The position numbers and the translations under genes are program-made. This document shows, piece after piece, positions 7,078 to 21,407 of a stretch of DNA of 32,000 nt. Source of the stretch: Thermofilum pendens Hrk 5. Its GTDB lineage: Archaea > Thermoproteota > Thermoprotei > Thermofilales > Thermofilaceae. The stretch spans positions 1,170,001 to 1,202,000 of the forward strand of contig NC_008698.1 in the NCBI RefSeq assembly GCF_000015225.1, read 5' to 3'. Position 1 is the first letter of the stretch, and each line of letters starts with the position of its first letter. Under the pieces are notes generated by a model. It searched no databases and was not told the origin of the DNA. It saw only the letters and a list, made by a program, of their open reading frames with translations.

Positions 7078-7521
7078 ATGAAGGTAGCTTTCGGGGCGGA
7101 CGATAACTACTCGATAGCGAGGTTCGTAGTAGAGGAGCTTAAGCGCAGGGGCCACGAGGTCGTGCTGGTAGGCTCCCCGCTGACGGGGAAGCCCTACCCC
7201 TGGCCAAAAGTGGCTGTGGAGGTTGCGGAGCTCGTTGCGAGCGGCAAGGTGGATACGGGGATAGTCATGTGCTACACCGGGACGGGGGTGAGCATAGCCG
7301 CGAACAAGGTCAAGGGAGTCAGGGCTGCTCTCTGCACCGACGCGAAGAACGCCAGGGGCGCGCGCCTGTGGAACGACGCCAACGTGCTCGCGCTAAGCGC
7401 GAGGCTCCTCTCGGAGGAGGTCGCGAAGGAGATACTCGACGAGTGGTTCTCGGTCGAGAAGCCGGACCCCAGCGAGCTGGAGAACATAGAGTTCGTGAAG
7501 AAGCTGGACCTCTCAAGGTGA
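7078..7521 (+). CDS. rpiB: Ribose-5-phosphate isomerase B (RpiB/LacA/LacB family)
   Basis: MKVAFGADDNY, GIVMCYTGTGVSIAANKVKGVRAAL (catalytic Cys plus the SIAANK motif) and NDANVLALSARL match the family, and the 147-aa length is typical. Confidence 0.9.
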   Translation: MKVAFGADDNYSIARFVVEELKRRGHEVVLVGSPLTGKPYPWPKVAVEVAELVASGKVDTGIVMCYTGTGVSIAANKVKGVRAALCTDAKNARGARLWNDANVLALSARLLSEEVAKEILDEWFSVEKPDPSELENIEFVKKLDLSR

Positions 7522-8121
7522 GCCCAGGACCCTCCACAGCTCCTCCGCGGCTTCCCGGTCGACCTCCAGGAACCTCTCGAGCACGCGTAGCCTCTCGACC
7601 TTGCCCCCCGCCGCGAGGTAGACCCTGCCGCCCTCCACGGCTACTAGCTGGTAGACGACTCCGCGGAACTCGAGCTCGCCTACCCTCAGCTCCTCCGCGA
7701 TCGCGTCGAGCAAGCCCCCCGTGTCTACGAAGCCCTTGAAGAACTCCTCGACCCTGCGCATAGCCCCCCTGACGCCGAGCATCCTCACCGCGAAGTAGTC
7801 GACAGCCTCGAAGGACGCGCCTAAAGGCCTCTCGCGCGGCTGCGGGGGCGGCGGGATCCCCCTAACTATACCTTCGTTGCAGTCCCGCGAGGGGACCAGG
7901 GGCGCCGCCACGGGCGGGTCACCCTCCTTGACTGCACCCTCCGGGATCCTCCGGGCCAGGAGTATCAGGGCCCGCCGCCCGCCCCGCGCCCCCGCGAAGC
8001 AGTCGAAGAGGTAGAGGTAGCCGGGCTCCCCGGCCCGGCGGAAAGCGGCGTAGGGGTACCAGGCCTTCCTGAGCCGCTCGACTCTCCTCAGAGCCTTGGC
8101 GGAGACGTCCACGTAGTACAC
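7513..8121 (-). CDS. Hypothetical protein (third gene of a three-gene unknown operon)
   Basis: A 202-aa ORF with ordinary, non-low-complexity composition. It starts 13 nt after the stop of 8135..8632. No motif recognised. Its 3' end overlaps rpiB by 9 nt (convergent). Confidence 0.6.
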   Translation of the reverse strand: MYYVDVSAKALRRVERLRKAWYPYAAFRRAGEPGYLYLFDCFAGARGGRRALILLARRIPEGAVKEGDPPVAAPLVPSRDCNEGIVRGIPPPPQPRERPLGASFEAVDYFAVRMLGVRGAMRRVEEFFKGFVDTGGLLDAIAEELRVGELEFRGVVYQLVAVEGGRVYLAAGGKVERLRVLERFLEVDREAAEELWRVLGSP

Positions 8122-8134
8122 TGGGACGGCACCT

Positions 8135-8632
8135 CTACGTGTCCACCCGCGAGACGAGCCCCGCGTACCCCGTGTGGAGCCTCGGGTGGTTCTCCTCGAA
8201 GGAGAAGCCCTCGGCGTTCAGCAGGAAGAGCTCGTCGGCGCGTACCCGTAGCCCCCTGCGCCCGGCCATAGCGAGGAAGTCCCCGGACGCCAGCGACGTG
8301 TAGCCGCTCCACGACTCCACGGGGAACTGGTCGTAGTGCGTCGTGCCGACAGCGGTGATCTCGCCGGCGCGGACCTCGTAGACGCGCATGTGGAGGTAGA
8401 GGTAGGCGTTGAACGTCGGGGAGTAGACCACGCCCTTTGTGCCCCTGTCGCCGAGCCAGGTGCCCGCCGGCCAGACCTGCATCTTCATCTCGTTGCCGTA
8501 CGGTGTTCCACCGAAGAACAAGCCCCTAACCTCTCCGGCGCCCCCGAAGCCCGCGAAAACCAGGGAGACGGGCCAGTCGACGTTGTCCAGGCCTACCCTC
8601 TCGGACTGGAAGTCGTAGTTGTAGAATGACAC
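8135..8632 (-). CDS. Hypothetical protein (middle gene; may be the C-terminal part of a frameshifted fusion)
   Basis: A 165-aa ORF from GTG 8632 (SFYNYDFQSERVGLDNVDWPVSLVF...YLHMRVYE...GTTHYD). Its frame stays open upstream to 8749 with protein-like text but no ATG, GTG or TTG. No family recognised. Confidence 0.6.
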   Translation of the reverse strand: MSFYNYDFQSERVGLDNVDWPVSLVFAGFGGAGEVRGLFFGGTPYGNEMKMQVWPAGTWLGDRGTKGVVYSPTFNAYLYLHMRVYEVRAGEITAVGTTHYDQFPVESWSGYTSLASGDFLAMAGRRGLRVRADELFLLNAEGFSFEENHPRLHTGYAGLVSRVDT

Positions 8633-9291
8633 GCCCCCGGCGGACAGCTTTGCAAGCCCGCACTTAGCCCTCGACCTGGCCTCCCGCGCCCTCTCGACGT
8701 GGGAGGAAACGTCGCGCGCCTCCCCGGGACGGCTAGCCCCGTGAAGCGCTCAACGATCCGCCCGCCCGGCTCAACCCCCACGAGCGCAGCGCCGCCAGCC
8801 GTTAGCACCTCGTATACCCTCAGGCTCCCCAGCTGGCCGTAGGAGTACTCGCCTACCAGGCGCGCCTCCCCAGCCTCCCCCCACAGCCTACCGGCAAACT
8901 CGAGCACCCTCGCGAGCTCCCCCGAGTCCGCCCGCAACCCCTCCCCACCTCCCAGGAGGGGGTCCAGCAGAACCACCCTCCCGCGCCCCCTGTCGTAGAA
9001 GACGTGGAGCCCGCCCGCCACTACGCGCGCGGAGTAGCTCGCCCCCCTCAGGAAGTCCGCGAACACTCCTTCGACCTCGACGCGGCCGGCTAGGCGGAGA
9101 AGCGCTACGCAGCCGGTGAAGCCCATCGAGCGCCAGGAGCCCGAGACCAGTAGCTCCCACTCGGCGTGCCCAATCACTCTTCCAAGCAGTGGGTCAGACC
9201 TCAGCGCCTCCTCCAGCCTCCCCGCCTCCCACCCGCAGTAGTCTACCTCGCTTCTCTCCTCGACGAGACTTGCATCCAACCCTACCGGCAT
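8593..9291 (-). CDS. Hypothetical protein (first gene of the unknown operon); the last ~45 aa look out-of-frame
   Basis: A 232-aa ORF with a TATA-like element (revcomp of 9319-9331) about 30 nt upstream. The C-terminal tail PGRRATFPPTSRGRGRPGRGLSAGLQSCPPGACHSTTTTSSPRG is P/G/R/S-rich and overlaps the next ORF by 40 nt. Confidence 0.6.
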   Translation of the reverse strand: MPVGLDASLVEERSEVDYCGWEAGRLEEALRSDPLLGRVIGHAEWELLVSGSWRSMGFTGCVALLRLAGRVEVEGVFADFLRGASYSARVVAGGLHVFYDRGRGRVVLLDPLLGGGEGLRADSGELARVLEFAGRLWGEAGEARLVGEYSYGQLGSLRVYEVLTAGGAALVGVEPGGRIVERFTGLAVPGRRATFPPTSRGRGRPGRGLSAGLQSCPPGACHSTTTTSSPRG

Positions 9292-9620
9292 AGCCTACTC
9301 CTCACGCTACGGGCAGCCATAAAGCTTTAACGTAGCATGCGTAGCCGTTCCCGGTAGAAGCTTCTCCGCGCGTTAGCTTTAACTGAAGCTTTTCGGATGC
9401 CGCGTGATAGCTTCATTAATAAATATAACGCGGAGTCTTTTTAGTTTATCCCTCCCGAAGCGAGCTCCACGTTTTCACGATAAACTAATATTCTTCGAGG
9501 CCCTCCCATTACTGTTGATTATTATTCAAAGCTTTAACTCCTGCTTTGACGGAATTCTTCATGTATTTCTTTCTCAATGTAAAGTAAAATGTTTATTAAT
9601 GCTTAAAGACAGTTTAGGTT

Positions 9621-11771
9621 GTGCAACAGGCGCAGAAAAAGGGCTTGAGTAAGAGCGCGTTGTACGCCATTATAGCCGTTGCGTTGATTCTCGTAGTTGT
9701 AGCCGTCTACCTCTTGGCCCCGAAGGGTGCGGGACCAGCTGGCCCCGCCGCCGTGGCTAAGCCGTTCCACAAGCAGATTCTCTACGTGATCGTCAACGAC
9801 GAGGGGACTAGGATAAACATGTACAAGACCGGTGTCTTCGACATCGCTGCCGTAACGCCGGCTAGGTGGCCCGACGTTAACAATACTCGTGTCGGGAACT
9901 TCACGCTCCACCTCGTGAGGAGGCCCGACAAGCCGCAGCTAACGATACAGTACATAGGGTTGAACCCGATGAAGGAGCCGCTGAACATACCGGAGGTCAG
10001 GCAGGCGCTGGCCTACGCGACGCCCTACGACGTGATACTGAAGCAGGTTTTCGGCGGGCTCTACGTTAGGCTCTACACGATCATCCCCAAGGGGATGTCC
10101 GGCTACACGGAGTTCGGTATAAACAAGTACGAGTACGACATGGCGAAGGCCCAGCAGATAATCAGCCAGCTGAAGGCTAAGGGCTTCGACCCGGGCAAGT
10201 ACGTGATCACTATAATATACAACGAGGGCAACACGGCGCGCCAGCAGATAGCCACGCTCCTCCAGCAGTCGTGGAGCCAGCTCGGCTTCAAGGTTACCGT
10301 GGAGTCGTACTCCTGGCCCAAGTACCTCGACCTCGTCGACCACTTCCAGTACCAGGTGATGTTGCTCGGGTGGATACCCGACTACTTCGACCCCGACGAC
10401 TACCTCATGCCGTTCGTCTGGGGAGGCGCCGAGTTCAAGGACATAGAGGTACACTCGAACGTCGCGCCGGGAGACGTCGGTAAGTACCTCGCGAACGTCA
10501 ACATGACCGTCGAGACAGAGAAGTTCATCGTAGTAGCGGGAGAGAAGGGCACAGGCGCCACCTACAAGGGACCGACGAACAAGCCGATAATAACAGTCGG
10601 CTACGTCGTAGACTGGGACACGACGAAGTCTAACTGGGCGGAGCCCGTGAACATGGTTACCCTCGGCACCGGGGGGTTGAAGGACGTTGCTCTCAGCGCG
10701 CTGTGCAAGGCGGCCCAGAGGATAATCGACCCGACGGTTAGAGAGGCCGTCATGCAGGCCGCCGTCATCTACTTCAACAAGCAGGCAACCATGCTGATAC
10801 TCGGGCAACAGATAACGGGCGAGAACTACGGATCGTGGGTTCACGGCATGTACTACCCGCTCGCAACTTTCGCGAGGTACGACCTCGTCTGGGAGGACCC
10901 CAACGCCCCGGTTGTCGACACGGGCGTTCTCAACATTAAGAACAGCCCCGAGACGATGGTTATCGGCGATATAGGCTGGCCGGACACCTTCGACCCCGCC
11001 AAGTCCTACGAGAGCTTCGGCTGGGAGATCTTCTGGCACATATACGGAAAGCTTGTCACGATGTGGAAGGAGGACACGGAGCCCATACCGGAGCTCTCCG
11101 TGGCCTGGGCGTTCAGCAAGGACATGACGGACCTCTACTTCGTGATGAGGGGCAACGTGAAGGCCTACGATCCGTGGAACAACAAGACGTACCCCATAAC
11201 CGCCGTGGACGCCTTGTTCAGCATCTGGCGCGCCGTTAGGCTGAACCTGCCCGGAGGACCCCAGTGGATGATCGATAGCTACATAGACGTCAACGCCTCG
11301 AGCGTGCTCACGGAGAGCGAGCTAGACAGCATCGCCAAGTCCCAGGGCCTCGTAACAGTGTACAAGGGCAAGTCGGCGGAAGTCCACAGCCTCAAGGAGC
11401 TACTCGACTTCTTCGGCTACTCGGGCCCCACAGCCGGGGTCGTGAAGTTCAAGCTACGCTTCCCGTACGTGCCGATACTGCAGATATTCGTGACGGGCGT
11501 AGGCTCGATAATACCGATGCAGTACGCGCTCGGAGACAAGTACCAGGCCGCCCTCGCCGACTCCAATAACGGCAGGAACCCCGCGGCGTGGGCTAAGTAC
11601 GTCGGTGTCGGCGATACCGACGCGACGTTCAAGCTACTGTCGACGAAGCCTGTATCCACGGGGCCGTACTACGTTGCGGACTACAAGGAGGACAGCTACA
11701 TACTCCTCAAGTACAACCCCTACTACTGGAACGCCACGCTCTGGCAGGAGCTGTATGGCTTCAAACCATAA
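9621..11771 (+). CDS. ABC transporter substrate-binding protein, family 5 (Dpp/Opp/Nik type), membrane-anchored, apparently circularly permuted
   Basis: N-terminal anchor ALYAIIAVALILVVVAVYLLAP. Family-5 motifs include IQYIGLNPMKEPLNIPEVRQALAYA, YEYDMAKAQQII, LLGWIPDYFDPDDYL, TMVIGDIGWPDTFDPAKSY, IPELSVAWAFSKD and PVSTGPYYVADYKEDSYILLKYNPYYW. GTG start; a downstream TTG (9645) is possible. Confidence 0.9.
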   Translation: MQQAQKKGLSKSALYAIIAVALILVVVAVYLLAPKGAGPAGPAAVAKPFHKQILYVIVNDEGTRINMYKTGVFDIAAVTPARWPDVNNTRVGNFTLHLVRRPDKPQLTIQYIGLNPMKEPLNIPEVRQALAYATPYDVILKQVFGGLYVRLYTIIPKGMSGYTEFGINKYEYDMAKAQQIISQLKAKGFDPGKYVITIIYNEGNTARQQIATLLQQSWSQLGFKVTVESYSWPKYLDLVDHFQYQVMLLGWIPDYFDPDDYLMPFVWGGAEFKDIEVHSNVAPGDVGKYLANVNMTVETEKFIVVAGEKGTGATYKGPTNKPIITVGYVVDWDTTKSNWAEPVNMVTLGTGGLKDVALSALCKAAQRIIDPTVREAVMQAAVIYFNKQATMLILGQQITGENYGSWVHGMYYPLATFARYDLVWEDPNAPVVDTGVLNIKNSPETMVIGDIGWPDTFDPAKSYESFGWEIFWHIYGKLVTMWKEDTEPIPELSVAWAFSKDMTDLYFVMRGNVKAYDPWNNKTYPITAVDALFSIWRAVRLNLPGGPQWMIDSYIDVNASSVLTESELDSIAKSQGLVTVYKGKSAEVHSLKELLDFFGYSGPTAGVVKFKLRFPYVPILQIFVTGVGSIIPMQYALGDKYQAALADSNNGRNPAAWAKYVGVGDTDATFKLLSTKPVSTGPYYVADYKEDSYILLKYNPYYWNATLWQELYGFKP

Positions 11772-11815: not shown

Positions 11816-12874
11816 ATGGGTCTAGCTAGCTATCTGGTGAGGAGGCTTGCAACGTTTCTCCCGAGCGTCCTCGGGGCGCTCCTCATAACCTACCTCATAG
11901 CCTACGTTATCCCCACGGACCCCGTGAGGGCGTGGGTAGGGGAGAAGCTCATGGACCCCTCGACCCTAGAGAGGCTGAGGAAGGAGTACAAGTTCGACGC
12001 GCCGTGGTACGAGCAGTTCGCCTTCCTGGTCGAGAAGCTCCTAACGGGCACGCTCGTAGACCCCACCAGGGGTATCCCCGTCGTCCAGCAGGTGGCGCAG
12101 AGGTTCCCGATAACCGTCGAGCTGGCTATATTCGGCATGCTGTTCACAGTGGCTATAGGCATACCGCTGGGGATACTGGCAGCGGCGAAGAAGGACAGCT
12201 TCGTGGACTTCTTCGTAAGGGTATTCGCGCTCTTCGGGAGCTCCATGCCGGCCTTCGTGCTCTACTACTTCCTGATACTGGCGTTCTACGTCTACGTGAG
12301 AGCCTCGCTACTAGCCGGGGTTCCCTCCCTGTCTCCAGCGTGCGCCGCCAGCCTGGACTCCGTCAGGAACGCGGTTCCCCTCCTGGGCTACGTCGTGTGG
12401 GCGGTAGGCCAGGTCCCGATGTTCGGCGGTCTCATGTGCGGGGATCTGGGGGTTGTCTCTGCGACGTTCGTTAGGATGTGGCTTCCGGGGTTGGCGCTGG
12501 GGCTCCTCTCCGGCGGCTTCATAGCGAGGATAGTTAGGAACAGCTTGCTCGACGCGCTGAGTTCGGACGCGATCCTCTTTGCAAGGGCAAGGGGCCTTAC
12601 GAGCGGCAGGATATGGCGGCACGCCTTGAAGAACGCGTTCGCGCCTATAGTCACGATTCTCGGCCTCAACTTCGCCGGCCTGCTCACGGGCGCCGTGATA
12701 GCGGAGACTGTCTTCAATATCCCCGGCATGGGGCTCTACATGTACCAGGGGATCACGAGGCTGAACTTCCCGATAATAATCGCCGGGACGTTCATATTCT
12801 CGGTGATATACATCGTGATGAACCTCCTGGTAGACCTCGTCTACGCGCTGATAGACCCGCGCGTCAGGTACTAG
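11816..12874 (+). CDS. ABC transporter permease (DppB/OppB-like)
   Basis: Typical N-terminus MGLASYLVRRLATFLPSVLGALLITYLIAYVIPTDP, multiple TM segments, and the EAA-loop region ARARGLTSGRIWRHALKNAFAPIV. Confidence 0.9.
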   Translation: MGLASYLVRRLATFLPSVLGALLITYLIAYVIPTDPVRAWVGEKLMDPSTLERLRKEYKFDAPWYEQFAFLVEKLLTGTLVDPTRGIPVVQQVAQRFPITVELAIFGMLFTVAIGIPLGILAAAKKDSFVDFFVRVFALFGSSMPAFVLYYFLILAFYVYVRASLLAGVPSLSPACAASLDSVRNAVPLLGYVVWAVGQVPMFGGLMCGDLGVVSATFVRMWLPGLALGLLSGGFIARIVRNSLLDALSSDAILFARARGLTSGRIWRHALKNAFAPIVTILGLNFAGLLTGAVIAETVFNIPGMGLYMYQGITRLNFPIIIAGTFIFSVIYIVMNLLVDLVYALIDPRVRY

Positions 12875-12885
12875 GGGTGGTAAGC

Positions 12886-13992
12886 GTGAACGTCGTCTAC
12901 GCCCTGGGTAGCAGGCTTATAGACGCCTACGCCAGGCTCAGGGATAGGCTCTCGCCCGGCTGGCTCGAGAAAAACAAGTCCAAGCTCGTAGAGACGAAGC
13001 TCTCGCTGTACGTCTTCTCGTCCTCCAAGATAGGCTTGACGGGGCTCGCTCTCGTCACGGTCACGCTCTTCCTGGCGATCTTCGGCCCCTTCATAGCGTG
13101 GGAGCCCTACGACGTGTACCCAGTGCTCTCGAACCCGGACCTCGCCGGCAAGCTACCCCACCCCCCGTGCCTCGGTAACTGCGAGGGGTTGCCGCCCGCG
13201 GGTACGGACCAGTACGGGAGAGACGTGCTCAGCCTGGTGATCAGGGGCTTCCGGATATCCCTCGTGATGAGCGTGATAATCGTCGTTACCAGCGCCGTGC
13301 TGGGAGTAGTCCTCGGGCTCGTCTCCGGCTACTTCGGAGGAGCGGTAGACGAGGCCATAATGAGGTTTACCGACATGATGCTCGCCTTCCCGGGCCTAAT
13401 ACTCGCGATAGCCTTCAGCCTAACGTTGAGGCTCTCCCTGAGGGACTTCATGATGTCCAACCCCGCGTTCACAGGGCTCGTCGCATCCATGTTCGCGCTG
13501 GACCCCAGGGACGCGCCCAACCTGGCGAACCTCCTCTCGGTGTTCCTGGCGCTCATACTCGTCTGGTGGCCGCCGTACGCGAGGGTAGTTAGGGGCTCCG
13601 TGCTGACAGTCAAGGAGCAGGGGTTCATAGAGGCGGCGAGGGCTCTCGGGCTGTCGACGCGGAAGGTGCTCTTCAGGCACGTCCTCCCCAACATCATGTC
13701 CCCGCTCCTCGTCATGGTAACCTTCGACTTCGCGACAGCCACTCTGAGCTCAGCGGCTCTCTCCTTCCTGGGGCTCGGCCCCCAGCCGCCCGTACCGGAC
13801 CTGGGGCTGATAATATCCCAGGCGGGGCAGTTCTTCCCGGAGAGGAGCTGGTGGATAGTCGTGGAGGCGGGGACCGCCCTGCTACTCATATCCCTCGGGT
13901 GGAACCTCGTGGGGGACGCGCTCAGGGACGTCTTCGACCCGAAGACGAGGCGCTCCATAGAGCTTAAGGCGAAGATAGAGGTGAGACCATGA
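12886..13992 (+). CDS. ABC transporter permease (DppC/OppC-like)
   Basis: Tracked ORF 12613..13992 starts inside the upstream gene with R/P-rich text. GGGGTG at 12874-12879 followed by GTG 12886 gives a sensible start. EAA loop: IEAARALGLSTRKVLFRHVLPNIMSPLLV. Confidence 0.88.
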   Translation: MNVVYALGSRLIDAYARLRDRLSPGWLEKNKSKLVETKLSLYVFSSSKIGLTGLALVTVTLFLAIFGPFIAWEPYDVYPVLSNPDLAGKLPHPPCLGNCEGLPPAGTDQYGRDVLSLVIRGFRISLVMSVIIVVTSAVLGVVLGLVSGYFGGAVDEAIMRFTDMMLAFPGLILAIAFSLTLRLSLRDFMMSNPAFTGLVASMFALDPRDAPNLANLLSVFLALILVWWPPYARVVRGSVLTVKEQGFIEAARALGLSTRKVLFRHVLPNIMSPLLVMVTFDFATATLSSAALSFLGLGPQPPVPDLGLIISQAGQFFPERSWWIVVEAGTALLLISLGWNLVGDALRDVFDPKTRRSIELKAKIEVRP

Positions 13993-14987
13993 GCGCGTTG
14001 GAGGACAGGCAGGTGCTCTCGGCTAGGGGCGTAACCGTCAGGTTCTACACGTACGCCGGCGTCGTCCACGCGGTCACGGACGCCTACCTCGACGTCTACG
14101 AGGGCGAGAGCGTAGCCCTGGTGGGCGAGACGGGTAGCGGTAAGTCCGTGTTCACGAAGGCGCTTACAGGCCTCATAGACCCCCCGGGGCGCATAGAGTC
14201 CGGGAGCGTTCTCTTCAGGAGGCGGGACGGCAGGGTGGTCGACCTGCTGAAGCTTTCCCCGGAGGAGGTCCGGGAGATAAGGGGCGACGAGATATCCTAC
14301 GTGTTCCAGGACCCTTCGAGCGCGCTCGACCCCCTCTACACGGCGGGGGACCACATAGCCGAGACTATAACGGAGCACAGAGGCGTCCCCAAGGGGGACG
14401 CGCTCAGGGAGGCCGTCTCCCTCCTAAGGGACGTCATGATCCCGAACCCGGAGGTCAGGGTGAAGAACTACCCGCACGAGCTGAGCGGCGGGATGAGGCA
14501 GAGGGTAGTCATAGCCACCGCTATTGCGAACAAGCCGCGCCTACTCATAGCGGACGAGCCCACGACAAACCTCGACGTGACTGTCCAGGCCCAGATACTC
14601 GACCTCCTGAAGGACCTCAGGTCCAAGTACGGTATGAGCCTGCTACTCATAACCCACAACCTGGGCGTCGTCGCCGAGACGGCGGACAGGGTCTACGTCA
14701 TGTACGGCGGGAGGATAGCGGAGACGGCGGACGTGTACACGGTGTTCGAGTCGCCGGCACACCCCTACACGCAGCTCCTCCTCCGCTCCGTCCCGAACCC
14801 GCTGAAAAAGATCGAGCGCCTCGAGTCGATCCCGGGGACTGTCCCCAACCTGATAGACATGAAGCCGGGGTGCCCGTTCGCTCCGAGGTGCCCCTTCGCC
14901 ATGGAGGTTTGCAGCAGGGAGGACCCCCCGCGGGTAGACCTGGGTGGGGGGCACGTCGTCCACTGCTGGTTGCACGCTAAGAGGTGA
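13989..14987 (+). CDS. ABC transporter ATP-binding protein (DppD/OppD-like)
   Basis: Walker A GETGSGKS, signature LSGGMRQR, Walker B LLIADEPTTNLD, and the C-terminal oligopeptide-type extension GCPFAPRCPFAMEVC. ATGA overlap with the upstream permease. Confidence 0.95.
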   Translation: MSALEDRQVLSARGVTVRFYTYAGVVHAVTDAYLDVYEGESVALVGETGSGKSVFTKALTGLIDPPGRIESGSVLFRRRDGRVVDLLKLSPEEVREIRGDEISYVFQDPSSALDPLYTAGDHIAETITEHRGVPKGDALREAVSLLRDVMIPNPEVRVKNYPHELSGGMRQRVVIATAIANKPRLLIADEPTTNLDVTVQAQILDLLKDLRSKYGMSLLLITHNLGVVAETADRVYVMYGGRIAETADVYTVFESPAHPYTQLLLRSVPNPLKKIERLESIPGTVPNLIDMKPGCPFAPRCPFAMEVCSREDPPRVDLGGGHVVHCWLHAKR

Positions 14988-15955
14988 TGGGAGTGTCCGA
15001 GCTGGTAGTGGTTAGGGACCTCAAGAAGTACTTCAAGGTTAGGGGTAGCTTCTCCAAAACGGTCAAGGCCGTCGACGGGGTTTCCTTCGAGATAAGGGAG
15101 GGCGAGACTCTCGGGCTCGTTGGGGAGAGCGGGTGCGGCAAGTCCACGCTGGGGAGGGTCGTGATCAGGCTCCTCGAGCCTACCGGTGGGAAGGTTTTCT
15201 TCAAGGGGCAGGACGTAGCCGCTCTGAAGGGCGAGAAGCTGAAGCAGTTCAGGAGGCAGGCCCAGATAGTGTTCCAGGACCCCAACACATCGCTGAACCC
15301 TAGGATGACCATACTGGAGATCCTGAGCGAGCCTCTCTACGAGCACAATATACCCGTCGACGACCCCGAGGACTTCATAACCAAGCAACTGGAAAGCGTG
15401 GGGCTGGGGCGGGAGCACCTCTACCGCTACCCCCACGAGCTCAGCGGTGGGCAGAAGCAAAGGGTAGCCATACTGAGGGCGCTCCTCCTCAACCCGAGCT
15501 TCGTAGTGCTTGACGAGCCGACGTCGTCGCTCGACGTCTCCGTCCAGGCACAGATACTCAACATGCTCAAGGACTTCCAGGCGCAGAGGAAGCTCTCCTA
15601 CCTCTTCATCTCCCACGACATAGGCGTCGTGAAGTACATGAGCCAAAGGATAGCCGTGATGTACCTAGGCAAGATCGTCGAGCTAGGACCCTCGGACGCC
15701 GTCTTCGAGAACCCCCTCCACCCCTACACGAAGTTCCTGCTAAGCGCGGTCCCCGTGCCCGACCCCAAGTACGCGAGGGCGAGGAAAAGGCTGGCAATAC
15801 CGGGCGAGCCGCCATCGCCTATAAACGTGCCGCCCGGCTGCAGGTTCCACCCCAGGTGCCCCTACGCGACGGAGAAGTGCAGGACAGGCGAGCCGCCCGT
15901 AGTCGAGGCAGAGCCCGGGCACTTCGTCGCGTGCTGGCTGTACAGCAAGGGCTAG
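14984..15955 (+). CDS. ABC transporter ATP-binding protein (DppF/OppF-like)
   Basis: Walker A GESGCGKST, signature LSGGQKQR, Walker B VVLDEPTSSLD, and C-terminal GCRFHPRCPYATEKC. Start is GTG 14984 (GTGA overlap) or ATG 14987. Confidence 0.95.
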   Translation: MMGVSELVVVRDLKKYFKVRGSFSKTVKAVDGVSFEIREGETLGLVGESGCGKSTLGRVVIRLLEPTGGKVFFKGQDVAALKGEKLKQFRRQAQIVFQDPNTSLNPRMTILEILSEPLYEHNIPVDDPEDFITKQLESVGLGREHLYRYPHELSGGQKQRVAILRALLLNPSFVVLDEPTSSLDVSVQAQILNMLKDFQAQRKLSYLFISHDIGVVKYMSQRIAVMYLGKIVELGPSDAVFENPLHPYTKFLLSAVPVPDPKYARARKRLAIPGEPPSPINVPPGCRFHPRCPYATEKCRTGEPPVVEAEPGHFVACWLYSKG

Positions 15956-16232: not shown

Positions 16233-18059
16233 ATGGACGTAGTTATTGTAGCGGCAGGCGAGGCTTCGAGGCTTAGGCCTTACTCCGAGGAAATGCCGAA
16301 AACACTCATGGAACTGAGGCCCGGCCTTCCTATAATCGACTTCATACTGAAAAGGGTTATGGCTCTCTCTCCTAGGAAGGTGGTGGTTGTTACGAGAAGG
16401 ACGTGGAAGGATATTCTCGCCTCGCATCTCGCCGGCTTAGCCGAAGTCGTTACAGTAGACCTCGAGGGCGGGTTTGGGAACCTCTACAGCGTGTACACGG
16501 CGCTCACAAGAGTCGGGGACGAGTTCCTGATATTGATGTCTGACCACATATTCGAGGAGGAAGTACTGATGAGGCTTGCAGAACACGCGAGCAAAGCGTC
16601 GTTTACCGTTTGTCTCGACAGGAATCCCTCCCGCTCCGAGGCTGTGGAAGGTTTGAAAGTTATAATCGAAGGAGGACTGGTTAGGGACGCTGGCAAAGAT
16701 GCGGCGCCCCGGTACGGGATCGATACAGGGGCGATAATGGCGCGCGGGAGAGCCAAAGAGTTTATCGAGGAAGTGATCAGACAGAAAGGTCCAGGGGCAT
16801 CTATTGCCGACGTGCTGAGATTCGCCGCCTCTAAGGGAGAGGAGGTCGACTACGTAGACGTTACGGGGCTTTTATGGAAAGATATCGACACCCCCGAGGA
16901 CCTCGTTAAGGCTAGGAAACTCGTCGAGAAGGTGGAGCTCAGGGAGCTAGCGAAGAGGACTGGGGATCCCCTCTCGCGAGCTCTTTTGAAACCCCTAACG
17001 ACGAGGCTTTCGATGCTCGCCTTAAAGAACTCTCTGCTGAAACCCGCCATGCTTACTAGCTGGGCTTCGGCGTTTTTAGCATCGTGGGCTCTGCTTCTCC
17101 CACAGGTGGAGAGCAACGCGCTTCTAATGTTTCCCCTATTAGCCGTGCACGTAGTAGCGAGCGAACTTCTACGCGAGCTAGCAGTGCTAGCATCGTGGGA
17201 CGTCACGGCGATATCGCAGGTAGATTTCCTCGCTACACTACCCTTAGCGGCTTTTGTCTCAAGGCTTGCCGATACATGGCCTTTGTCTGTGCTTGCGGGG
17301 GCTGGGATACTTTTCACTTCGCTTGCCGGGCTCCCCAGAATGGCAAGCGCGGAGGGTTACTCAGGGTTACTGGTCTCCAAGCTTCTCGCTACTATCGTGC
17401 TTTCGCTCTCTCTTTTCGTGGGTGGGGCGATCTACGGGGTAGCCTTTTGCGCACTAATGCCCTGGTTGCACATAGCTTTAAGGCTTAAGCCGCGTAGATC
17501 TGGGCTTGCCAGAGGGAAAGAGCCTTCCCATGTACCCATCCCCGCGGTTCGTGTTGACGAGATCGCCGAGAAAATCGAGTCCCTTGTAACGAATGTGGTG
17601 AAGCTAGCGGTGGTTCTAGCTGTGCTTACGATGCTCTCCCCCCTCTCATCGGACGTCCTCTTCCAAGTCGATGAATATTCGCTACGCGTGGGGACTCTTC
17701 TAACGGTCGCGCAGTTAACCGCCGTTGTGTACTATGGCTATAAGATCCTGGAACCTCTCTTTAGCCTGCTAGACGCCCTGGCGACAAGACTCGTCGAGAA
17801 ACTCGGGGTAACAAGGTACACTGCTAGGCGTATACTGGTAGAGTCCGTGTACTTGGTGCTAATAGTGCTTACATGGTTCCTCCTCCCCAGCCTCAAGAAC
17901 ATACCCGGTATTGGCGGTGTGCTCTACAGGGTTCTAACGATAGTTATCGTCGCGCTTTTTGCCCTTATCTCCTACGACTTGGTGAGGCTTCTCTTCAGGG
18001 TATTCGAGGACACGCTTAAGCGCATAGTACACGCTATAGCCCGTTTTGTCTCCGGGTGA
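16233..18059 (+). CDS. IPCT-like cytidylyltransferase fused to a DIPPS-like membrane domain lacking the CDP-alcohol transferase motif, plus an extra C-terminal membrane region
   Basis: The N-terminal domain reads VVIVAAGEASRLRP...PKTLMEL, SDHIF, GIDTGAIMA, LWKDIDTPEDLVKARKLV, collinear with the IPCT domain of archaeal IPCT/DIPPS as I recall it. It is followed by the connector GDPLSRALLKPLTTRLS and TM helices. The expected DGxxDGxxAR position reads HVVASELLRELAV. About 170 further aa contain additional TM helices. Confidence 0.8.
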   Translation: MDVVIVAAGEASRLRPYSEEMPKTLMELRPGLPIIDFILKRVMALSPRKVVVVTRRTWKDILASHLAGLAEVVTVDLEGGFGNLYSVYTALTRVGDEFLILMSDHIFEEEVLMRLAEHASKASFTVCLDRNPSRSEAVEGLKVIIEGGLVRDAGKDAAPRYGIDTGAIMARGRAKEFIEEVIRQKGPGASIADVLRFAASKGEEVDYVDVTGLLWKDIDTPEDLVKARKLVEKVELRELAKRTGDPLSRALLKPLTTRLSMLALKNSLLKPAMLTSWASAFLASWALLLPQVESNALLMFPLLAVHVVASELLRELAVLASWDVTAISQVDFLATLPLAAFVSRLADTWPLSVLAGAGILFTSLAGLPRMASAEGYSGLLVSKLLATIVLSLSLFVGGAIYGVAFCALMPWLHIALRLKPRRSGLARGKEPSHVPIPAVRVDEIAEKIESLVTNVVKLAVVLAVLTMLSPLSSDVLFQVDEYSLRVGTLLTVAQLTAVVYYGYKILEPLFSLLDALATRLVEKLGVTRYTARRILVESVYLVLIVLTWFLLPSLKNIPGIGGVLYRVLTIVIVALFALISYDLVRLLFRVFEDTLKRIVHAIARFVSG

Positions 18060-19300
18060 GCATGTCAATGAAGGGCGTTGTAATGTTCACGGAGGAGGAT
18101 CGTTGTTGCTATGAGCTAAAGCTGTGCGGCGTACCGGTCTACCTCCGCGTAATAGCTGCGCTCATCCAGGGGGGCGTAAGGGAGATAGTCTGCGTGAATG
18201 CCCCGAGCCGCGTAAAATCGGCGTTAGGCGACGGGAGAGAGCTGAACGCCAGGGTAACGTACTTGGATTCAGCGGCGCGGGTCGAGGGTTTGGGAGACGC
18301 TGTCCTGCTAGAGGCATCGACTATTATCGACGTAGCACTGGTGCGGGCGGCTAGTACGTTTAAAGAGGACACGGTGGTGCTCGACGAGAAGAGTGGAGGA
18401 AAGGTGTGGGTACTGCGGAAAGCCAGCGCGAGGCTAGAGGGTAAAAGTGCTGGTGAACTACCGGTAATACTAGGCGAGCTCGAGAAGTCTTCGCTCAAAC
18501 GGGTAAGCGTCCGAGAAATAGCCTTTATGGATCCTGAGCTCAAGCGTGAAGTGGAGCCTCTTTGCGTTAAGATCCGTGACCCCCTGGACGCACGCGAAGT
18601 AAAAAAGTTGCTGGTCAAAAGGGCTGGTAAAAGGTTGCACATAACCTCGCGGGTGAACACCGTAATTGAGGACAGGGTAGTCGAAATGCTATGCGAGCAC
18701 AGCTGGGTAACGCCTAACAGGGTTACACTCCTCGTAGACTTACTAGCGTTTATGGTAGCATTCTTTATACTGCAGGCGAGCTTGCCCCTGGCGCTCGTAG
18801 CGGCGTACCTCGTAGGAGTTCTGGACGGGGTAGACGGGAAGCTGGCAAGGGTCAGGTTTCCCTCAAAGGTGGGTAGCCTCGAGCACTCGTTCGACGCGCT
18901 ATACGAGCAGACCTGGTATGCTTTCCTCGCCTGGAGGTTGTTCGTAGACACGGGATCTCACCTACCCCTTATGCTCGGCTTTGCCTTTCTCGTCGTGGAC
19001 ACCTTCGTCCGGCACGTGTACATGCAGTTTAAAATGACGATGGGTATACCCCTTACGGCTTACTCCAGATTCGACAGGGCTTTTGCCGCCATCGACGGTA
19101 GGCGGAACGTTTATCTCATTTACTTCCTCGTCTCCTCGCTTCTCGGACAACCGCTCTGCGGTCTGCTAGCGGCGCTTGCACACGCGCTTATAACGGCTAC
19201 GTTCTACTCGCTGAGAGCGTTAAAACATGCAAGGAACGTCGACAAAGCGTCAGGCCTCTCGCGCCTCTTAGAACTGAGTAAAAGCACTAGGAAAGACTAA
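18056..19300 (+). CDS. CDP-alcohol phosphatidyltransferase (DIPPS-like) with a degenerate N-terminal nucleotidyltransferase-like domain
   Basis: LDGVDGKLARVRFPSKVGSLEHSFD (nt 18824-18895) fits D-G-x2-D-G-x2-A-R...G...D with one Asp-to-Glu change. It is preceded by TPNRVTLL and TM helices. The N-terminal ~190 aa align to the upstream gene's transferase domain (LCGVPVYLRVIAALIQGGVREIVCV ... KIRDPLDAREVKKLL), but the G-rich loop reads FTEEDRCCYEL. GTG 18056 overlaps the upstream stop; ATG 18062 is an alternative start. Confidence 0.8.
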   Translation: MSMSMKGVVMFTEEDRCCYELKLCGVPVYLRVIAALIQGGVREIVCVNAPSRVKSALGDGRELNARVTYLDSAARVEGLGDAVLLEASTIIDVALVRAASTFKEDTVVLDEKSGGKVWVLRKASARLEGKSAGELPVILGELEKSSLKRVSVREIAFMDPELKREVEPLCVKIRDPLDAREVKKLLVKRAGKRLHITSRVNTVIEDRVVEMLCEHSWVTPNRVTLLVDLLAFMVAFFILQASLPLALVAAYLVGVLDGVDGKLARVRFPSKVGSLEHSFDALYEQTWYAFLAWRLFVDTGSHLPLMLGFAFLVVDTFVRHVYMQFKMTMGIPLTAYSRFDRAFAAIDGRRNVYLIYFLVSSLLGQPLCGLLAALAHALITATFYSLRALKHARNVDKASGLSRLLELSKSTRKD

Positions 19301-20252: not shown

Positions 20253-21407
20253 ATGTGGAGGATAAGCCTCTACAGGAAGCTCTGGAGCTCCGAGAAGGAG
20301 TGCAAGGTCTGCGGTAAAAAGTCCATGCTGGTATCGGAGGCTATCGGGGTGTGCGCCGAGTGCTTGAGGAGCGACCCCGGGGCGGTGGAGGTAGCCCTGG
20401 AGGGCCACAGGAAGGAGAGGGCCTCTCTAGGCTTGCCGCCCGACCCTCCGAGGGATCCTCGGGGCACTCCGTGCGGCCTGTGCAACCTGGGCTGCAGGAT
20501 ACCCGAGGGCGGGCTGGGCTACTGCGGGCTCGTGAAGAACGAGGGCGGGAGGATTGTCCACCTCTCGGGGCAACCCGGGAGCGGCGTGCTCGAGTACTAC
20601 TACGACCCCCACCCGACGAACTGCGTAGCATTCTGGTTCTGCCCCGGCGCCACGGGGGCCGGCTACCCCAGGTACGCGGTTAGGCCTGGTTGCGAGGAGG
20701 GGTACGTGAACCTGGCCGTCTTCTACGGCGCCTGCAACCACAACTGCGCGTTCTGCCAGAACTGGTTCTACAGGAGGAACGCCGTCTCCAGGTCCCCGAG
20801 GGTCAGCGTCGAAGAGCTACTCGAGGCCGCGCTAGACCCCAGGGTTACCTGCGTCTGCTTCTTCGGCGGCGACCCCGCCCCCCAAGTACTGCACGCGCTC
20901 GCCTTCACCAGGGAGTTGCTCGAGAGGGCTAGGGGCAGGATTATGAGGGTTTGCTGGGAGTCCAACGGGCACTTCAGCCCTAAGATTCTCCCGAGGGTCA
21001 TCGAAGCCTCCCTGAGGAGCGGCGGCACCGTCAAGTTCGACTTGAAGGCGTGGAGCCCGGGCATATACAGGGCTCTAACAGGCGTCGAGCAGGGCTCCCT
21101 GCTGGACAACGCCGGGAGGGTCGCCGAGGCCGCCAAGGAGAGGCCGGAGGTACCGCTGTTCACCGCCAGCACGCTCCTAGTCCCCGGCTACGTGGACGAG
21201 GAGGAGGTAAGGGCTATCGCGCGCTTCCTCGCATCCCTCTCCCCCGACATCCCGTACACCCTGCTCGCCTTCCACCCCGACCACAGGATGCTCGACCTAC
21301 CCCCGACGAGCAGGAGGCACGCCGAGGAAGCCGCGAGGGTTGCCAGGGAGGAGGGGTTGCTGAGGGTGAGGATCGGGAACCCGTGGTTGCTCGGCGACTA
21401 CTACTAG
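20253..21407 (+). CDS. Radical SAM enzyme related to PFL-activase/AmrS-like proteins, with N-terminal Cys-rich region
   Basis: CNHNCAFCQNW (Cx3Cx2C followed by QNW) is preceded by CKVCG...CAEC and CGLCNLGCRIPEGGLGYCGL, as in COG1180-type activases. FFGGDPAP is the glycine-rich SAM motif. TATA-like GGCTTAAAGCC (20217-20227) lies about 30 nt upstream. Confidence 0.85.
   Translation: MWRISLYRKLWSSEKECKVCGKKSMLVSEAIGVCAECLRSDPGAVEVALEGHRKERASLGLPPDPPRDPRGTPCGLCNLGCRIPEGGLGYCGLVKNEGGRIVHLSGQPGSGVLEYYYDPHPTNCVAFWFCPGATGAGYPRYAVRPGCEEGYVNLAVFYGACNHNCAFCQNWFYRRNAVSRSPRVSVEELLEAALDPRVTCVCFFGGDPAPQVLHALAFTRELLERARGRIMRVCWESNGHFSPKILPRVIEASLRSGGTVKFDLKAWSPGIYRALTGVEQGSLLDNAGRVAEAAKERPEVPLFTASTLLVPGYVDEEEVRAIARFLASLSPDIPYTLLAFHPDHRMLDLPPTSRRHAEEAARVAREEGLLRVRIGNPWLLGDYY

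What the first reader, a model, noticed from the sequence alone, without database searches (positions are those of the whole stretch)
9621..11771. Family-5 ABC substrate-binding protein that reads as a circular permutation of the canonical DppA/OppA order
After the membrane anchor, the protein starts with the segment that normally follows the first lobe. KPFHKQILYVIVNDEGTRINMYKTGVFDIA corresponds to DppA IDTLVFSITPDASVRYAKLQKNECQV. It then continues through IQYIGLNP...VRQALAYA, YEYDMAKAQ and GWIPDYFDPDDYL to the normal C-terminal end, FNKQATMLILGQQ...VHGMYYPL (about aa 50-426, nt 9768-10898). Only after that do the canonical N-terminal motifs appear: TMVIGDIGWPDTFDPAKSY, IPELSVAWAFSKD, ITAVDALFSIWR and PVSTGPYYVADYKEDSYILLKYNPYYW (aa ~440-716). 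The protein ends with ...YGFKP and the mature part begins with ...AKPFHKQ. That matches the canonical junction YWG-x-KP-x-ID and is what a duplication-then-truncation permutation would leave behind.
Basis: partly seen in the sequence, partly recalled or inferred. Interest (0 to 1): 0.65.

Follow-up and report, generated by a model that had tools for sequence, protein, structure and literature searches.

The report
Circularly permuted archaeal peptide-binding protein
The gene encodes a membrane-tethered ABC-transporter binding protein whose chain starts in the middle of the usual DppA/OppA order and ends where the middle should begin. It belongs to a group of archaeal relatives in which this rewiring has happened repeatedly at different break points.

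Summary
ORF 9621-11771 (+, 716 aa) is a family-5 (DppA/OppA-type) substrate-binding protein, and its segments are cyclically rotated relative to the canonical order. Residues 47-278 match DppA 240-452. Residues 357-424 match the DppA C-terminus (466-533 of 535). Residues 442-705 match the DppA mature N-terminus (27-235). Residues 279-355 are a lineage-specific insert. Pfam gives the two predicted hits with swapped model coordinates.

The order is conserved in 82 of the 120 best homologues from hyperthermophilic Thermoproteota. The gene heads an intact SBP-permease-permease-ATPase-ATPase operon, is under purifying selection, and gives a confident AF2 model (pLDDT 92).

Two results go beyond the finding:
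- Sister proteins at about 48% identity (Thermococcales, Staphylothermus, Pyrodictium) share the same fused C-to-N junction but are cut elsewhere. Two further cut points occur in the same well-supported clade, so the query is probably a second-generation permutant.
- More distant archaeal family-5 proteins show independent permutations, including a canonical/permuted pair at 84% identity.

I found no solved structure or paper describing this. It is a new variant of a known family. The mechanism (tethered Venus-flytrap peptide capture) is inferred.

The parts
9592..9599 (+). TATA-like box TTTATTAA, 22-29 nt upstream of the GTG start. Putative archaeal promoter of a leaderless transcript.
   Evidence: Read from the sequence. 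A promoter role is inference only.
9621..11771 (+). Complete gene for the circularly permuted family-5 substrate-binding protein (716 aa plus stop).
   Evidence: ORF. Pfam SBP_bac_5 at 185.6 bits against a cut-off of 32.4. AF2 pLDDT 92.2, pTM 0.86. pN 0.07-0.25 against pS 0.68-0.97 in every segment.
9651..9716 (+). N-terminal membrane anchor (aa 11-32, hydrophobic helix).
   Evidence: AF2 helix H11-32. Relatives of both forms have equivalent TM anchors or lipoboxes followed by a linker.
9717..9758 (+). Flexible Pro/Gly/Ala tether (aa 33-46).
   Evidence: pLDDT below 50 for aa 33-42. In homologues it is replaced by Thr/Pro/Ser-rich linkers of variable length.
9759..10454 (+). Block A (aa 47-278), equivalent to canonical DppA 240-452. 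It covers the last strand and helix of lobe 1, the first hinge crossing and most of domain III, including GWIPD with Asp254.
   Evidence: hhalign E 4e-55. Pfam model positions 149-361. D254 aligns with DppA D408 and OppA D419.
10455..10685 (+). Lineage-specific beta-rich insert (aa 279-355) with no counterpart in canonical proteins. The termini of the sister 'swapped' form lie inside it.
   Evidence: No canonical match and no Pfam hit. AF2 strands E272-281, E295-298, E303-309, E323-330. The swapped form's C-terminus plus mature N-terminus concatenate to this sequence.
10686..10892 (+). Canonical C-terminal segment s3 (aa 356-424), equivalent to DppA 466-533 of 535.
   Evidence: hhalign 97.5% probability, E 6e-12. 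HMM against OppA 457-523, iE 0.0024.
10893..10943 (+). New peptide joining the canonical C-terminus to the canonical N-terminus (aa 425-441, 'EDPNAPVVDTGVLNIKNSPE').
   Evidence: Conserved across all cut variants of the clade. pLDDT 91-97. A single HMM alignment spans the C->N junction on doubled OppA.
10944..11768 (+). Canonical N-terminal part s1 (aa 442-716), equivalent to DppA 27-235 (domain I strand, domain II, back to domain I). It ends at '...NPYYWNATLWQELYGFKP'.
   Evidence: hhalign E 3e-38. Pfam model positions 1-142. phmmer against DppA 29-125 and 199-235.
11816..12874 (+). DppB/OppB-type permease.
   Evidence: Pfam BPD_transp_1 and BPD_transp_1_N. 45% identical to the partner of the swapped-form SBP in T. 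barophilus.
12877..13992 (+). DppC/OppC-type permease. The longest ORF starts at 12613, but homologues align only from about residue 80-92.
   Evidence: Pfam OppC_N and BPD_transp_1. Alignment offsets.
13989..14987 (+). DppD-type ATPase.
   Evidence: Pfam ABC_tran and oligo_HPY.
14984..15955 (+). DppF-type ATPase.
   Evidence: Pfam ABC_tran and oligo_HPY.

Best explanation
The gene encodes a functional, naturally circularly permuted family-5 (cluster C; DppA/OppA-type) substrate-binding protein of a Thermofilaceae-like hyperthermophilic archaeon.

Chain path. An N-terminal transmembrane helix and a short flexible tether hold the protein on the cell surface. The chain enters the fold at the strand that normally follows 'YW-x-KP' in lobe 1. 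It crosses the first hinge into domain III, passes through a lineage-specific beta insert, and returns through the second hinge to the canonical C-terminal element. A 17-residue conserved linker then takes it directly into the canonical N-terminal strand. It builds domain II and the rest of domain I and stops where it began.

Function (inferred). Both hinge crossings and the ligand-anchoring Asp are retained. The protein most likely works like an ordinary Venus-flytrap binding protein: it captures a peptide between the lobes and delivers it to the co-encoded DppBCDF-type translocator. Only the chain connectivity and the attachment point of the membrane tether differ.

Origin (inferred). The form most likely arose by in-frame tandem duplication followed by loss of the outer parts, starting from an ancestor that was already permuted (order s3-s1-s2, termini inside what is now the insert).
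For: Shown:
- Cyclic rotation of all canonical segments, each present once.
- Conservation of this order over aa 47-716 in 82 of the 120 best homologues (44-90% identity), including Desulfurococcus amylolyticus, Pyrobaculum, Infirmifilum and many MAGs.
- A high-confidence AF2 model (pLDDT 92.2, pTM 0.86). The junction has pLDDT 91-97.
- Foldseek probability 1.0 to DppA/OppA/NikA structures, but only about 380 aligned columns.
- After rotating the query, it aligns globally with the swapped-form protein over 656 positions (48% identity). The two independent models agree in DSSP state at 91% of those positions.
- Strong purifying selection in every segment, including the insert and the junction.
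- A complete operon whose permeases and ATPases co-diverge with the SBP.
- Invariant Asp254 in 'GWIPD' aligns with DppA D408 and OppA D419. That these Asp residues bind the peptide alpha-amino group is established knowledge of DppA/OppA structures.

Support for the origin scenario:
- The conserved C->N junction is shared by the query type, the swapped type and the h113 and h215 cut variants.
- The 21-member permuted clade has bootstrap 0.97 and the inner 17-member clade 1.0, with s3-s1-s2 proteins basal.
- The swapped form's two termini concatenate to the query's insert sequence, and the query's two termini concatenate to the swapped form's continuous 'YWN..IKPLHKRVIYVINND'.
Against: - There is no experimental structure or binding data.
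The 3D adjacency of the new termini is inferred from homology, not measured.
- The ligand is not known. The Arg that binds the dipeptide carboxylate in DppA is not conserved (it aligns with Asn201), and some archaeal and Thermotoga family-5 proteins bind sugars (from memory).
- The polarity of the permutations rests on NJ trees with unresolved inner branches (0.23-0.36).
- No tandem intermediate was found in this clade.
Confidence: 0.9

Rival explanations
1. Artefact: the ORF is a chimera or fusion of the 3' part of one SBP gene with the 5' part of a neighbouring paralogue (misassembly, frameshift or pseudogene), not a single working protein.
For: Tandem SBP paralogues and long multi-copy family-5 fusion proteins exist in the databases. 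The window's origin is unknown.
Against: - The same architecture occurs in 82 of the 120 best homologues, including complete genomes and many independent contigs.
- Each canonical segment occurs once only, and there is no internal signal peptide at the junction.
- AF2 folds it as one compact protein with pLDDT 92.
- pN is far below pS throughout.
- The gene sits in the normal first position of the operon.
Confidence: 0.01
2. The query form arose directly from a canonical-order ancestor by one duplication-truncation event. The swapped (s3-s1-s2), h113 and h215 forms arose independently from the same tandem-duplicated ancestor or from the query form.
For: - 'KP' is present at both termini of the query type and matches the canonical YW-x-KP junction.
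- Inner branches of the clade are unresolved.
- Independent permutations clearly occur elsewhere in archaeal family-5 proteins, for example P0137 against P0133 at 84% identity.
Against: - All cut variants of the clade share one long, highly conserved C->N junction and the same insert. This points to a single fusion event before the cuts diversified.
- The basal members P0124-P0127 have the s3-s1-s2 order.
- The insert, which has no canonical counterpart, is exactly where the swapped form has its termini. That is easy to explain if the termini grew there first.
Confidence: 0.3
3. The permutation is adaptive rather than neutral. Moving the tether attachment point (and, in the swapped form, moving it to the other lobe) changes how the tethered binding protein approaches the translocator or the S-layer in hyperthermophilic archaea, or it increases thermostability by relocating the termini.
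For: - All permuted forms are N-terminally anchored surface proteins of archaea.
- Permutation is recurrent, with at least five cut regions.
- Each form is stably conserved within its own lineage.
Against: - There is no functional data.
- The tethers are long and flexible (14 to more than 60 residues), which should blunt any geometric effect.
- Canonical-order relatives coexist in similar archaea.
- Recurrence may simply reflect close canonical termini that tolerate fusion with 3-6 residue linkers.
Confidence: 0.2

Closest known systems
E. coli / Yersinia DppA (PDB 1DPP, 1DPE, 5F1Q, 8Z1Y) and OppA (1OLA, 3TCF): canonical cluster-C / family-5 peptide-binding proteins
   Same: - Significant sequence homology over all three canonical segments.
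- Best structural matches, with Foldseek probability 1.0.
- The same operon partners with oligo_HPY ATPases.
- A conserved ligand-anchoring Asp.
- Presumably the same Venus-flytrap delivery mechanism.
   Different: - The chain order is rotated (240-452, 466-533, 27-235 instead of 27-533).
- The canonical termini are covalently joined by a 17-residue linker.
- The new termini lie inside lobe 1.
- There is an extra insert of about 77 residues in domain III.
- The protein is tethered by an N-terminal TM helix rather than being free in a periplasm.
- The DppA Arg that binds the dipeptide carboxylate is not conserved.
Sister 'swapped' proteins of Thermococcales and Desulfurococcales/Pyrodictiaceae (e.g. 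T. barophilus P0078, P. abyssi P0087, S. marinus P0095), annotated only as ABC transporter substrate-binding proteins
   Same: - About 48-50% identity over both blocks, with the same junction and the same insert.
- A homologous five-gene operon.
   Different: - The cut point lies inside the insert of domain III, so the order is s3-s1-s2.
- The canonical s1->s2 junction is intact, so Pfam sees a single collinear hit and Foldseek aligns about 500 columns.
- The tether therefore attaches to the other lobe.
Other naturally permuted protein families with several cut points, such as amino-DNA methyltransferases (alpha, beta and gamma motif orders), swaposin/saposin and glucanases. Named from memory, not tested here.
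   Same: The same fold is encoded with cyclically shifted sequence order in different lineages. Duplication-truncation is the usual explanation.
   Different: These are unrelated folds and functions. Here the permuted unit is a roughly 500-residue, three-domain, hinge-bending protein. The events include a very recent one (84% identity between a canonical and a permuted protein).
Engineered circular permutants of periplasmic binding proteins used as biosensor scaffolds (for example maltose- or ribose-binding protein; literature retrieved)
   Same: They show that binding proteins tolerate joined termini and new cut sites while keeping ligand-induced closure.
   Different: Those are artificial and belong to other SBP clusters. 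The present cases are natural, conserved and belong to family 5.

Membership tests
Family-5 / cluster C substrate-binding proteins (Pfam PF00496 SBP_bac_5; DppA/OppA/NikA) | Sequence match to the family model above the curated threshold | tested here: met
   185.6 bits against a gathering score of 32.4, E 1.9e-54.
Family-5 / cluster C substrate-binding proteins (Pfam PF00496 SBP_bac_5; DppA/OppA/NikA) | All canonical sequence segments are present (N-terminal lobe-1/domain II part, domain III part, C-terminal return to lobe 1) | tested here: met
   hhalign maps Q442-705 -> DppA 27-235, Q47-278 -> 240-452 and Q357-424 -> 466-533.
Family-5 / cluster C substrate-binding proteins (Pfam PF00496 SBP_bac_5; DppA/OppA/NikA) | Canonical N-to-C order of those segments (single collinear alignment) | tested here: not met
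   There are two Pfam hits with swapped model coordinates, and the HMM and phmmer hits are non-collinear. This is the point of the finding. Homology holds but topology differs.
Family-5 / cluster C substrate-binding proteins (Pfam PF00496 SBP_bac_5; DppA/OppA/NikA) | Three-domain bilobate fold with two hinge crossings | tested here: inconclusive
   The AF2 model has pLDDT 92. Foldseek gives probability 1.0 to DppA/OppA/NikA but only about 380 columns and TM(target) about 0.5, because the aligner is sequential. DSSP agreement with the rotated sister model is 91%. A permutation-aware superposition was not possible because no coordinates were available.
Family-5 / cluster C substrate-binding proteins (Pfam PF00496 SBP_bac_5; DppA/OppA/NikA) | Encoded with Opp/Dpp-type permeases and ATPases that carry the oligo_HPY C-terminal domain | tested here: met
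   BPD_transp_1(+N), OppC_N+BPD_transp_1 and 2x ABC_tran+oligo_HPY lie directly downstream. The order is the same in Desulfurococcus and T. barophilus.
Family-5 / cluster C substrate-binding proteins (Pfam PF00496 SBP_bac_5; DppA/OppA/NikA) | Binds a ligand (peptide, nickel, opine or sugar) between the lobes and delivers it to the translocator | not testable with these tools
   The only indirect evidence is that invariant Asp254 aligns with the peptide alpha-amino-binding Asp of DppA and OppA.
Natural circular permutant of a known fold | Two sequence blocks are each significantly similar to a relative, but in the opposite order, with each block present once | tested here: met
   Against canonical DppA/OppA. 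Against close relatives, Q297-711 -> P0078 79-495 and Q47-278 -> P0078 496-722, each about 48% identical.
Natural circular permutant of a known fold | The original termini are covalently joined | tested here: met
   aa 425-441 link the canonical C-terminal element to the canonical N-terminal strand. The linker is conserved and confidently modelled. One alignment spans the junction of doubled OppA.
Natural circular permutant of a known fold | The three-dimensional fold is preserved, with the new termini adjacent in space | tested here: inconclusive
   This is inferred from the continuity of the chain at that site in canonical and swapped relatives, and from 91% DSSP agreement. No coordinates were available to measure the distance or to run CE-CP.
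Natural circular permutant of a known fold | A tandem-duplicated intermediate is observed (duplication-truncation model) | tested here: not met
   None was found in the query's clade among the 120 closest hits and 150 representatives. The tail of the 931-aa P0073 is not a repeated block. Tandem two-copy family-5 proteins exist only in distant lineages (P0149, P0216, P0239).

The most novel reading that the evidence does not exclude
Archaeal family-5 binding proteins are a hotspot of recurrent natural circular permutation.

- One well-supported clade of hyperthermophile proteins shares a single C->N fusion but has at least four different break points: the query type, the s3-s1-s2 type, and cuts near HMM positions 113 and 215.
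- Other archaeal lineages have permuted independently. Examples are a canonical/permuted pair at 84% identity with the same membrane anchor, and a pair at 73% identity whose cut differs by about 75 residues.
- On this reading the query is a second-generation permutant, and its 77-residue beta insert is the healed scar of the previous termini.
Probability: 0.6. Interest if true: 0.72.

Novelty: new variant of a known kind. Interest (0 to 1): 0.6.

Why it matters
Natural circular permutants are uncommon, and they are usually known as single events in small domains. Here a large, three-domain, hinge-bending transport protein has been rewired repeatedly. The series includes closely related canonical and permuted pairs and several break points in one clade.

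- It gives a natural series for testing the duplication-truncation model, and for asking how chain connectivity affects the folding, stability and closure dynamics of binding proteins.
- It allows a test of whether the tether attachment point matters for surface-anchored binding proteins of archaea.
- It offers evolution-validated cut sites for biosensor engineering on thermostable scaffolds.
- It is a practical warning for annotation. Domain models report these proteins as ordinary 'SBP_bac_5', and the s3-s1-s2 form even looks collinear to Pfam. Structure-based classifications and sequential aligners will therefore mis-handle them.

Tried and rejected
1. P0073 (931 aa) as a tandem-duplication intermediate. 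Its 215-residue tail has no similarity to any block of the protein. Rejected.
2. Duplication remnants around the recently permuted gene P0137. tblastn and blastn of the canonical relative against the whole locus found only the two expected blocks and an unrelated neighbouring paralogue. Nothing found.
3. A single origin for all permuted family-5 proteins. NJ trees on a permutation-independent alignment never recover them as one group (0 of 200 bootstraps). Nine of them scatter among canonical archaeal relatives. Rejected in favour of multiple events.
4. The shared 'DPNA' motif in junctions as evidence of common origin. The junctions outside the tight clade are simply canonical C-terminus plus 3-6 residues plus canonical mature N-terminus. 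Treated as non-diagnostic.
5. dN/dS. Synonymous sites are saturated against the available relatives, so only pN and pS proportions are reported.
6. Literature. Six full-text searches combining circular permutation with substrate/solute/periplasmic/oligopeptide-binding protein, OppA/DppA and SBP_bac_5 found no description of this. The one possibly relevant paper mentions permutation only generically.
7. Pfam hits of the insert region to DUF1120, SocA_Panacea and DUF4424. All are below the curated thresholds. Ignored.
Full report
**1. What is there**

Four genes follow it directly:
- a DppB/OppB-type permease (11816-12874);
- a DppC/OppC-type permease (effective start near 12877-12886, ending at 13992);
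- two ATPases with the oligo_HPY C-terminal domain (13989-14987 and 14984-15955).

A TATA-like TTTATTAA lies 22-29 nt upstream of the start codon. That fits a leaderless archaeal transcript, but the promoter role is inference. The protein matches Pfam SBP_bac_5 at 185.6 bits (threshold 32.4).

**2. Is the order really permuted?**

Yes, by every test available.
- phmmer against solved structures aligns query 103-263 to E. coli DppA 286-445, query 444-538 to DppA 29-125, and query 669-705 to DppA 199-235.
- Pfam on separate pieces gives aa 47-279 -> model positions 149-361 of 368 (E 3e-44) and aa 487-704 -> positions 1-142 (E 2e-11).
- An HMM of the query's family maps onto E. coli DppA and OppA in cyclic order. 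On a doubled OppA sequence, a single alignment runs across the artificial C->N junction.
- The weakest link was the assignment of aa ~360-430 to the canonical C-terminus. A profile-profile comparison against about 60 canonical-order relatives settled it: Q357-424 aligns with DppA 466-533 of 535 (97.5% probability, E 6e-12), Q47-278 with DppA 240-452 (E 4e-55), and Q442-705 with DppA 27-235 (E 3e-38). Q279-355 matches nothing canonical.

Each canonical segment therefore occurs once. The order is rotated, the cut lies between DppA residues 235 and 240, and the old termini are joined by aa 425-441.

**3. Is it a real, working protein?**

- The same order is collinear over aa 47-716 in 82 of the 120 best database hits (44-90% identity). 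These include Infirmifilum and Thermofilaceae, Desulfurococcus amylolyticus, Fervidicoccaceae, Sulfolobales and Desulfurococcales MAGs, and Pyrobaculum. The best reference-genome match is an Infirmifilum MAG at 84%.
- AF2 with a 51-sequence alignment gives pLDDT 92.2 and pTM 0.86, including 91-97 across the new junction. Only the N-terminus (aa 1-10) and the tether (aa 33-42) are disordered, and aa 11-32 form the membrane helix.
- Non-synonymous differences (pN 0.07-0.25) are far below the saturated synonymous differences (pS 0.68-0.97) in every segment, including the insert and the junction.
- Assembly or fusion artefacts are therefore excluded.

**4. Fold**

Foldseek finds DppA, OppA, NikA and relatives with probability 1.0. 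Because it is a sequential aligner, it covers only about 380 of 716 residues, with TM-score normalised to the target of about 0.5.

The model of the sister form (P0078, pLDDT 82) keeps the canonical s1->s2 junction and aligns over about 500 columns with TM(target) 0.55-0.67. After rotating the query into the sister's order, the two proteins align globally over 656 positions (48% identity), and the two independent models agree in DSSP state at 91% of them. Without rotation only 429 positions align.

I could not obtain coordinates. A permutation-aware superposition and a direct measurement of the distance between the new termini remain to be done.

**5. The sister forms change the story**

Thirty-six of the 120 best hits carry the same two blocks in the opposite order: Q297-711 -> subject ~79-495 and Q47-278 -> subject ~496-722, each about 48-50% identical. 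They come from Thermococcus, Pyrococcus, Staphylothermus, Pyrodictium, Hyperthermus and Acidilobaceae.

These proteins are not canonical either. Their N-terminal part contains the canonical C-terminal element, followed by the same conserved junction and then the canonical N-terminus. They end shortly after 'GW.PDY.DPD'. Their order is s3-s1-s2, with the termini inside the lineage-specific insert. Pfam does not see this, because its model lacks the C-terminal element.

The two forms head homologous operons. Between the window and T. barophilus the permeases are 45-46% and the ATPases 61-63% identical, and the gene order is the same.

The termini of each form concatenate to the continuous sequence of the other:
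- '...YWNATLWQELYGFKP' + 'AKPFHKQILYVIVND' against '...YWNKDIWNNIKPLHKRVIYVINND';
- '...GATKFKELNVEVSG' + '...ITPAILELDKVAVIETDK' against '...GGAEFKDIEVHSNVAPGDVGKYLANVNMTVETEK'.

**6. More break points**

An exhaustive HMMER search of 1.84 billion cluster representatives found 7,767 family-5 relatives, but only 20 reached E <= 1e-30. Mapping the best 150 onto the family HMM showed that most are canonical (s1-s2-s3). It also revealed complete, signal-bearing, single-copy proteins that have the fused s3->s1 junction and other cut positions:
- near HMM position 113 (P0122);
- near 130-143 (P0148, P0174, P0177, P0232, P0158);
- near 213-215 (P0123, P0135, P0137, P0262);
- near 57 (P0164);
- near 310-360 (the swapped type).

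Several of these recur on multiple independent contigs.

On a permutation-independent alignment, NJ trees gave the following:
- The query type, the swapped type, P0122 and P0123 form a 17-member clade with bootstrap 0.98 and 1.0.
- With four basal s3-s1-s2 proteins (P0124-P0127) added, the 21-member clade has bootstrap 0.97.
- The order inside the clade is unresolved.

The other nine permuted proteins scatter among canonical archaeal relatives. Close pairs show recent events:
- P0137 (permuted) and P0133 (canonical) are 83-84% identical over both blocks and have the same N-terminal anchor.
- P0232 and P0164 are 73% identical, with cuts about 75 residues apart.
- P0148/P0151, P0158/P0139 and P0135/P0156 are 50-60% identical permuted/canonical pairs.

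P0137 is an extra SBP gene beside another Opp-type operon in an archaeal MAG, with no duplication remnants nearby. P0133 heads its own operon.

Outside the tight clade, the junctions are simply canonical C-terminus ('...YYDLWK') plus 3-6 residues plus canonical mature N-terminus ('NPDTF..IG.P..LDP'). This suggests that the canonical termini are close enough to fuse easily. Tandem two-copy family-5 proteins, the intermediate required by the duplication-truncation model, exist in distant lineages (halves 54-68% identical). None was found in the query's clade.

**7. How it most likely works**

Shown: the parts list, the connectivity, the conservation and the operon.

Inferred:
- The protein is held on the cell surface by its N-terminal helix and tether. 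It closes on a ligand between lobe 1 (domains I and II) and domain III, and delivers the ligand to the co-encoded translocator.
- Both inter-lobe crossings are retained, so hinge mechanics should be ordinary.
- The invariant Asp254 in 'GWIPD' aligns with DppA D408 and OppA D419. In the solved complexes these residues bind the peptide alpha-amino group (established knowledge).
- The DppA Arg that binds the dipeptide carboxylate is replaced (it aligns with Asn201). A peptide, perhaps longer than a dipeptide, is therefore the best guess. A sugar is not excluded.
- What the permutation changes is where the tether enters the fold: lobe 1 in the query type, and the insert on domain III in the swapped type. 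Whether that matters is unknown.

**8. Origin**

The most economical reading has four steps:
- One C->N fusion produced an s3-s1-s2 protein.
- Its termini acquired extra beta strands.
- A further duplication-truncation healed those termini into the present insert and opened the chain at the 'YW..KP|.H' site.
- The result is the query type, with 'KP' retained at both ends.

I put this at about 0.5-0.6. The direct-from-canonical alternative is at about 0.3.

**9. Comparison with what is known, and verdict**

By homology the protein is a member of family 5 / cluster C. It fails the family's canonical segment order, which is the finding itself. No solved structure has this order: the best TM-score normalised to the query is 0.37, and all sequence hits in the PDB are canonical. 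Six full-text literature searches found no description. Database names are generic ('ABC transporter substrate-binding protein', 'peptide transporter', and once 'DNA-binding protein').

The verdict is a new variant of a known kind. They extend to a recurrent phenomenon that would interest people working on protein evolution, folding and biosensor design. The likely biochemical function remains ordinary.

Noticed in passing
window 12613-13992 (+): The longest ORF of the second permease overlaps the first permease gene by about 260 nt. Homologues align only from residue ~80-92, so the real start is probably a GTG at about 12877-12886, directly after the stop of the upstream gene at 12874.
   Followed up: partly
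window 7513-9291 (-): Three consecutive minus-strand ORFs upstream of the transporter (202, 165 and 232 aa) have no Pfam match at E <= 0.001. They are either uncharacterised proteins or spurious ORFs in GC-rich DNA.
   Followed up: partly
window 16233-19300 and 20253-21407 (+): Downstream of the transporter lie a 608-aa protein with an N-terminal nucleotidyl-transferase domain, a 414-aa ORF with no Pfam hit, and a radical-SAM protein. There is no obvious link to the transporter.
   Followed up: no
P0073 (931 aa, Desulfurococcales archaeon ex4484_217_2), residues ~717-931: This is a query-type permuted SBP with an extra ~215-residue C-terminal domain. The extra domain is unrelated to any block of the SBP, and its nature is unknown.
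   Followed up: partly
P0122, P0123, P0125 (C-terminal ~30 residues); P0135, P0177: Several permuted relatives carry a C-terminal membrane anchor or a PGF-CTERM-like sorting signal in addition to the N-terminal anchor or signal. They may therefore be tethered at both ends or processed by an archaeosortase.
   Followed up: no
P0149, P0216, P0239 (1,137-1,202 aa); P0247 (4,308 aa): These are in-frame tandem multi-copy family-5 binding proteins (halves 54-68% identical). P0247 contains a direct s3->s1 junction inside a giant protein. P0239 repeats a copper-amine-oxidase-like N-terminal stalk with each copy.
   Followed up: partly
L006 (GCA_026993785.1 contig JALWRZ010000012.1), 6105-9749: The recently permuted SBP P0137 is divergently transcribed from a canonical 545-aa SBP that heads an Opp-type operon. 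Peptidase M24, Asp/Glu racemase and TldD/PmbA genes lie nearby, so this is a peptide-utilisation neighbourhood.
   Followed up: partly
P0116 (Pyrodictium occultum): This swapped-form SBP is named 'DNA-binding protein' in NCBI and UniRef, which is an evident misannotation.
   Followed up: no
L003 (T. barophilus CP002372.1), 7419-7661: An 80-aa AsnC-type regulatory-domain gene lies immediately upstream of, and divergent from, the swapped-form transporter operon. This fits amino-acid or peptide-responsive control.
   Followed up: no
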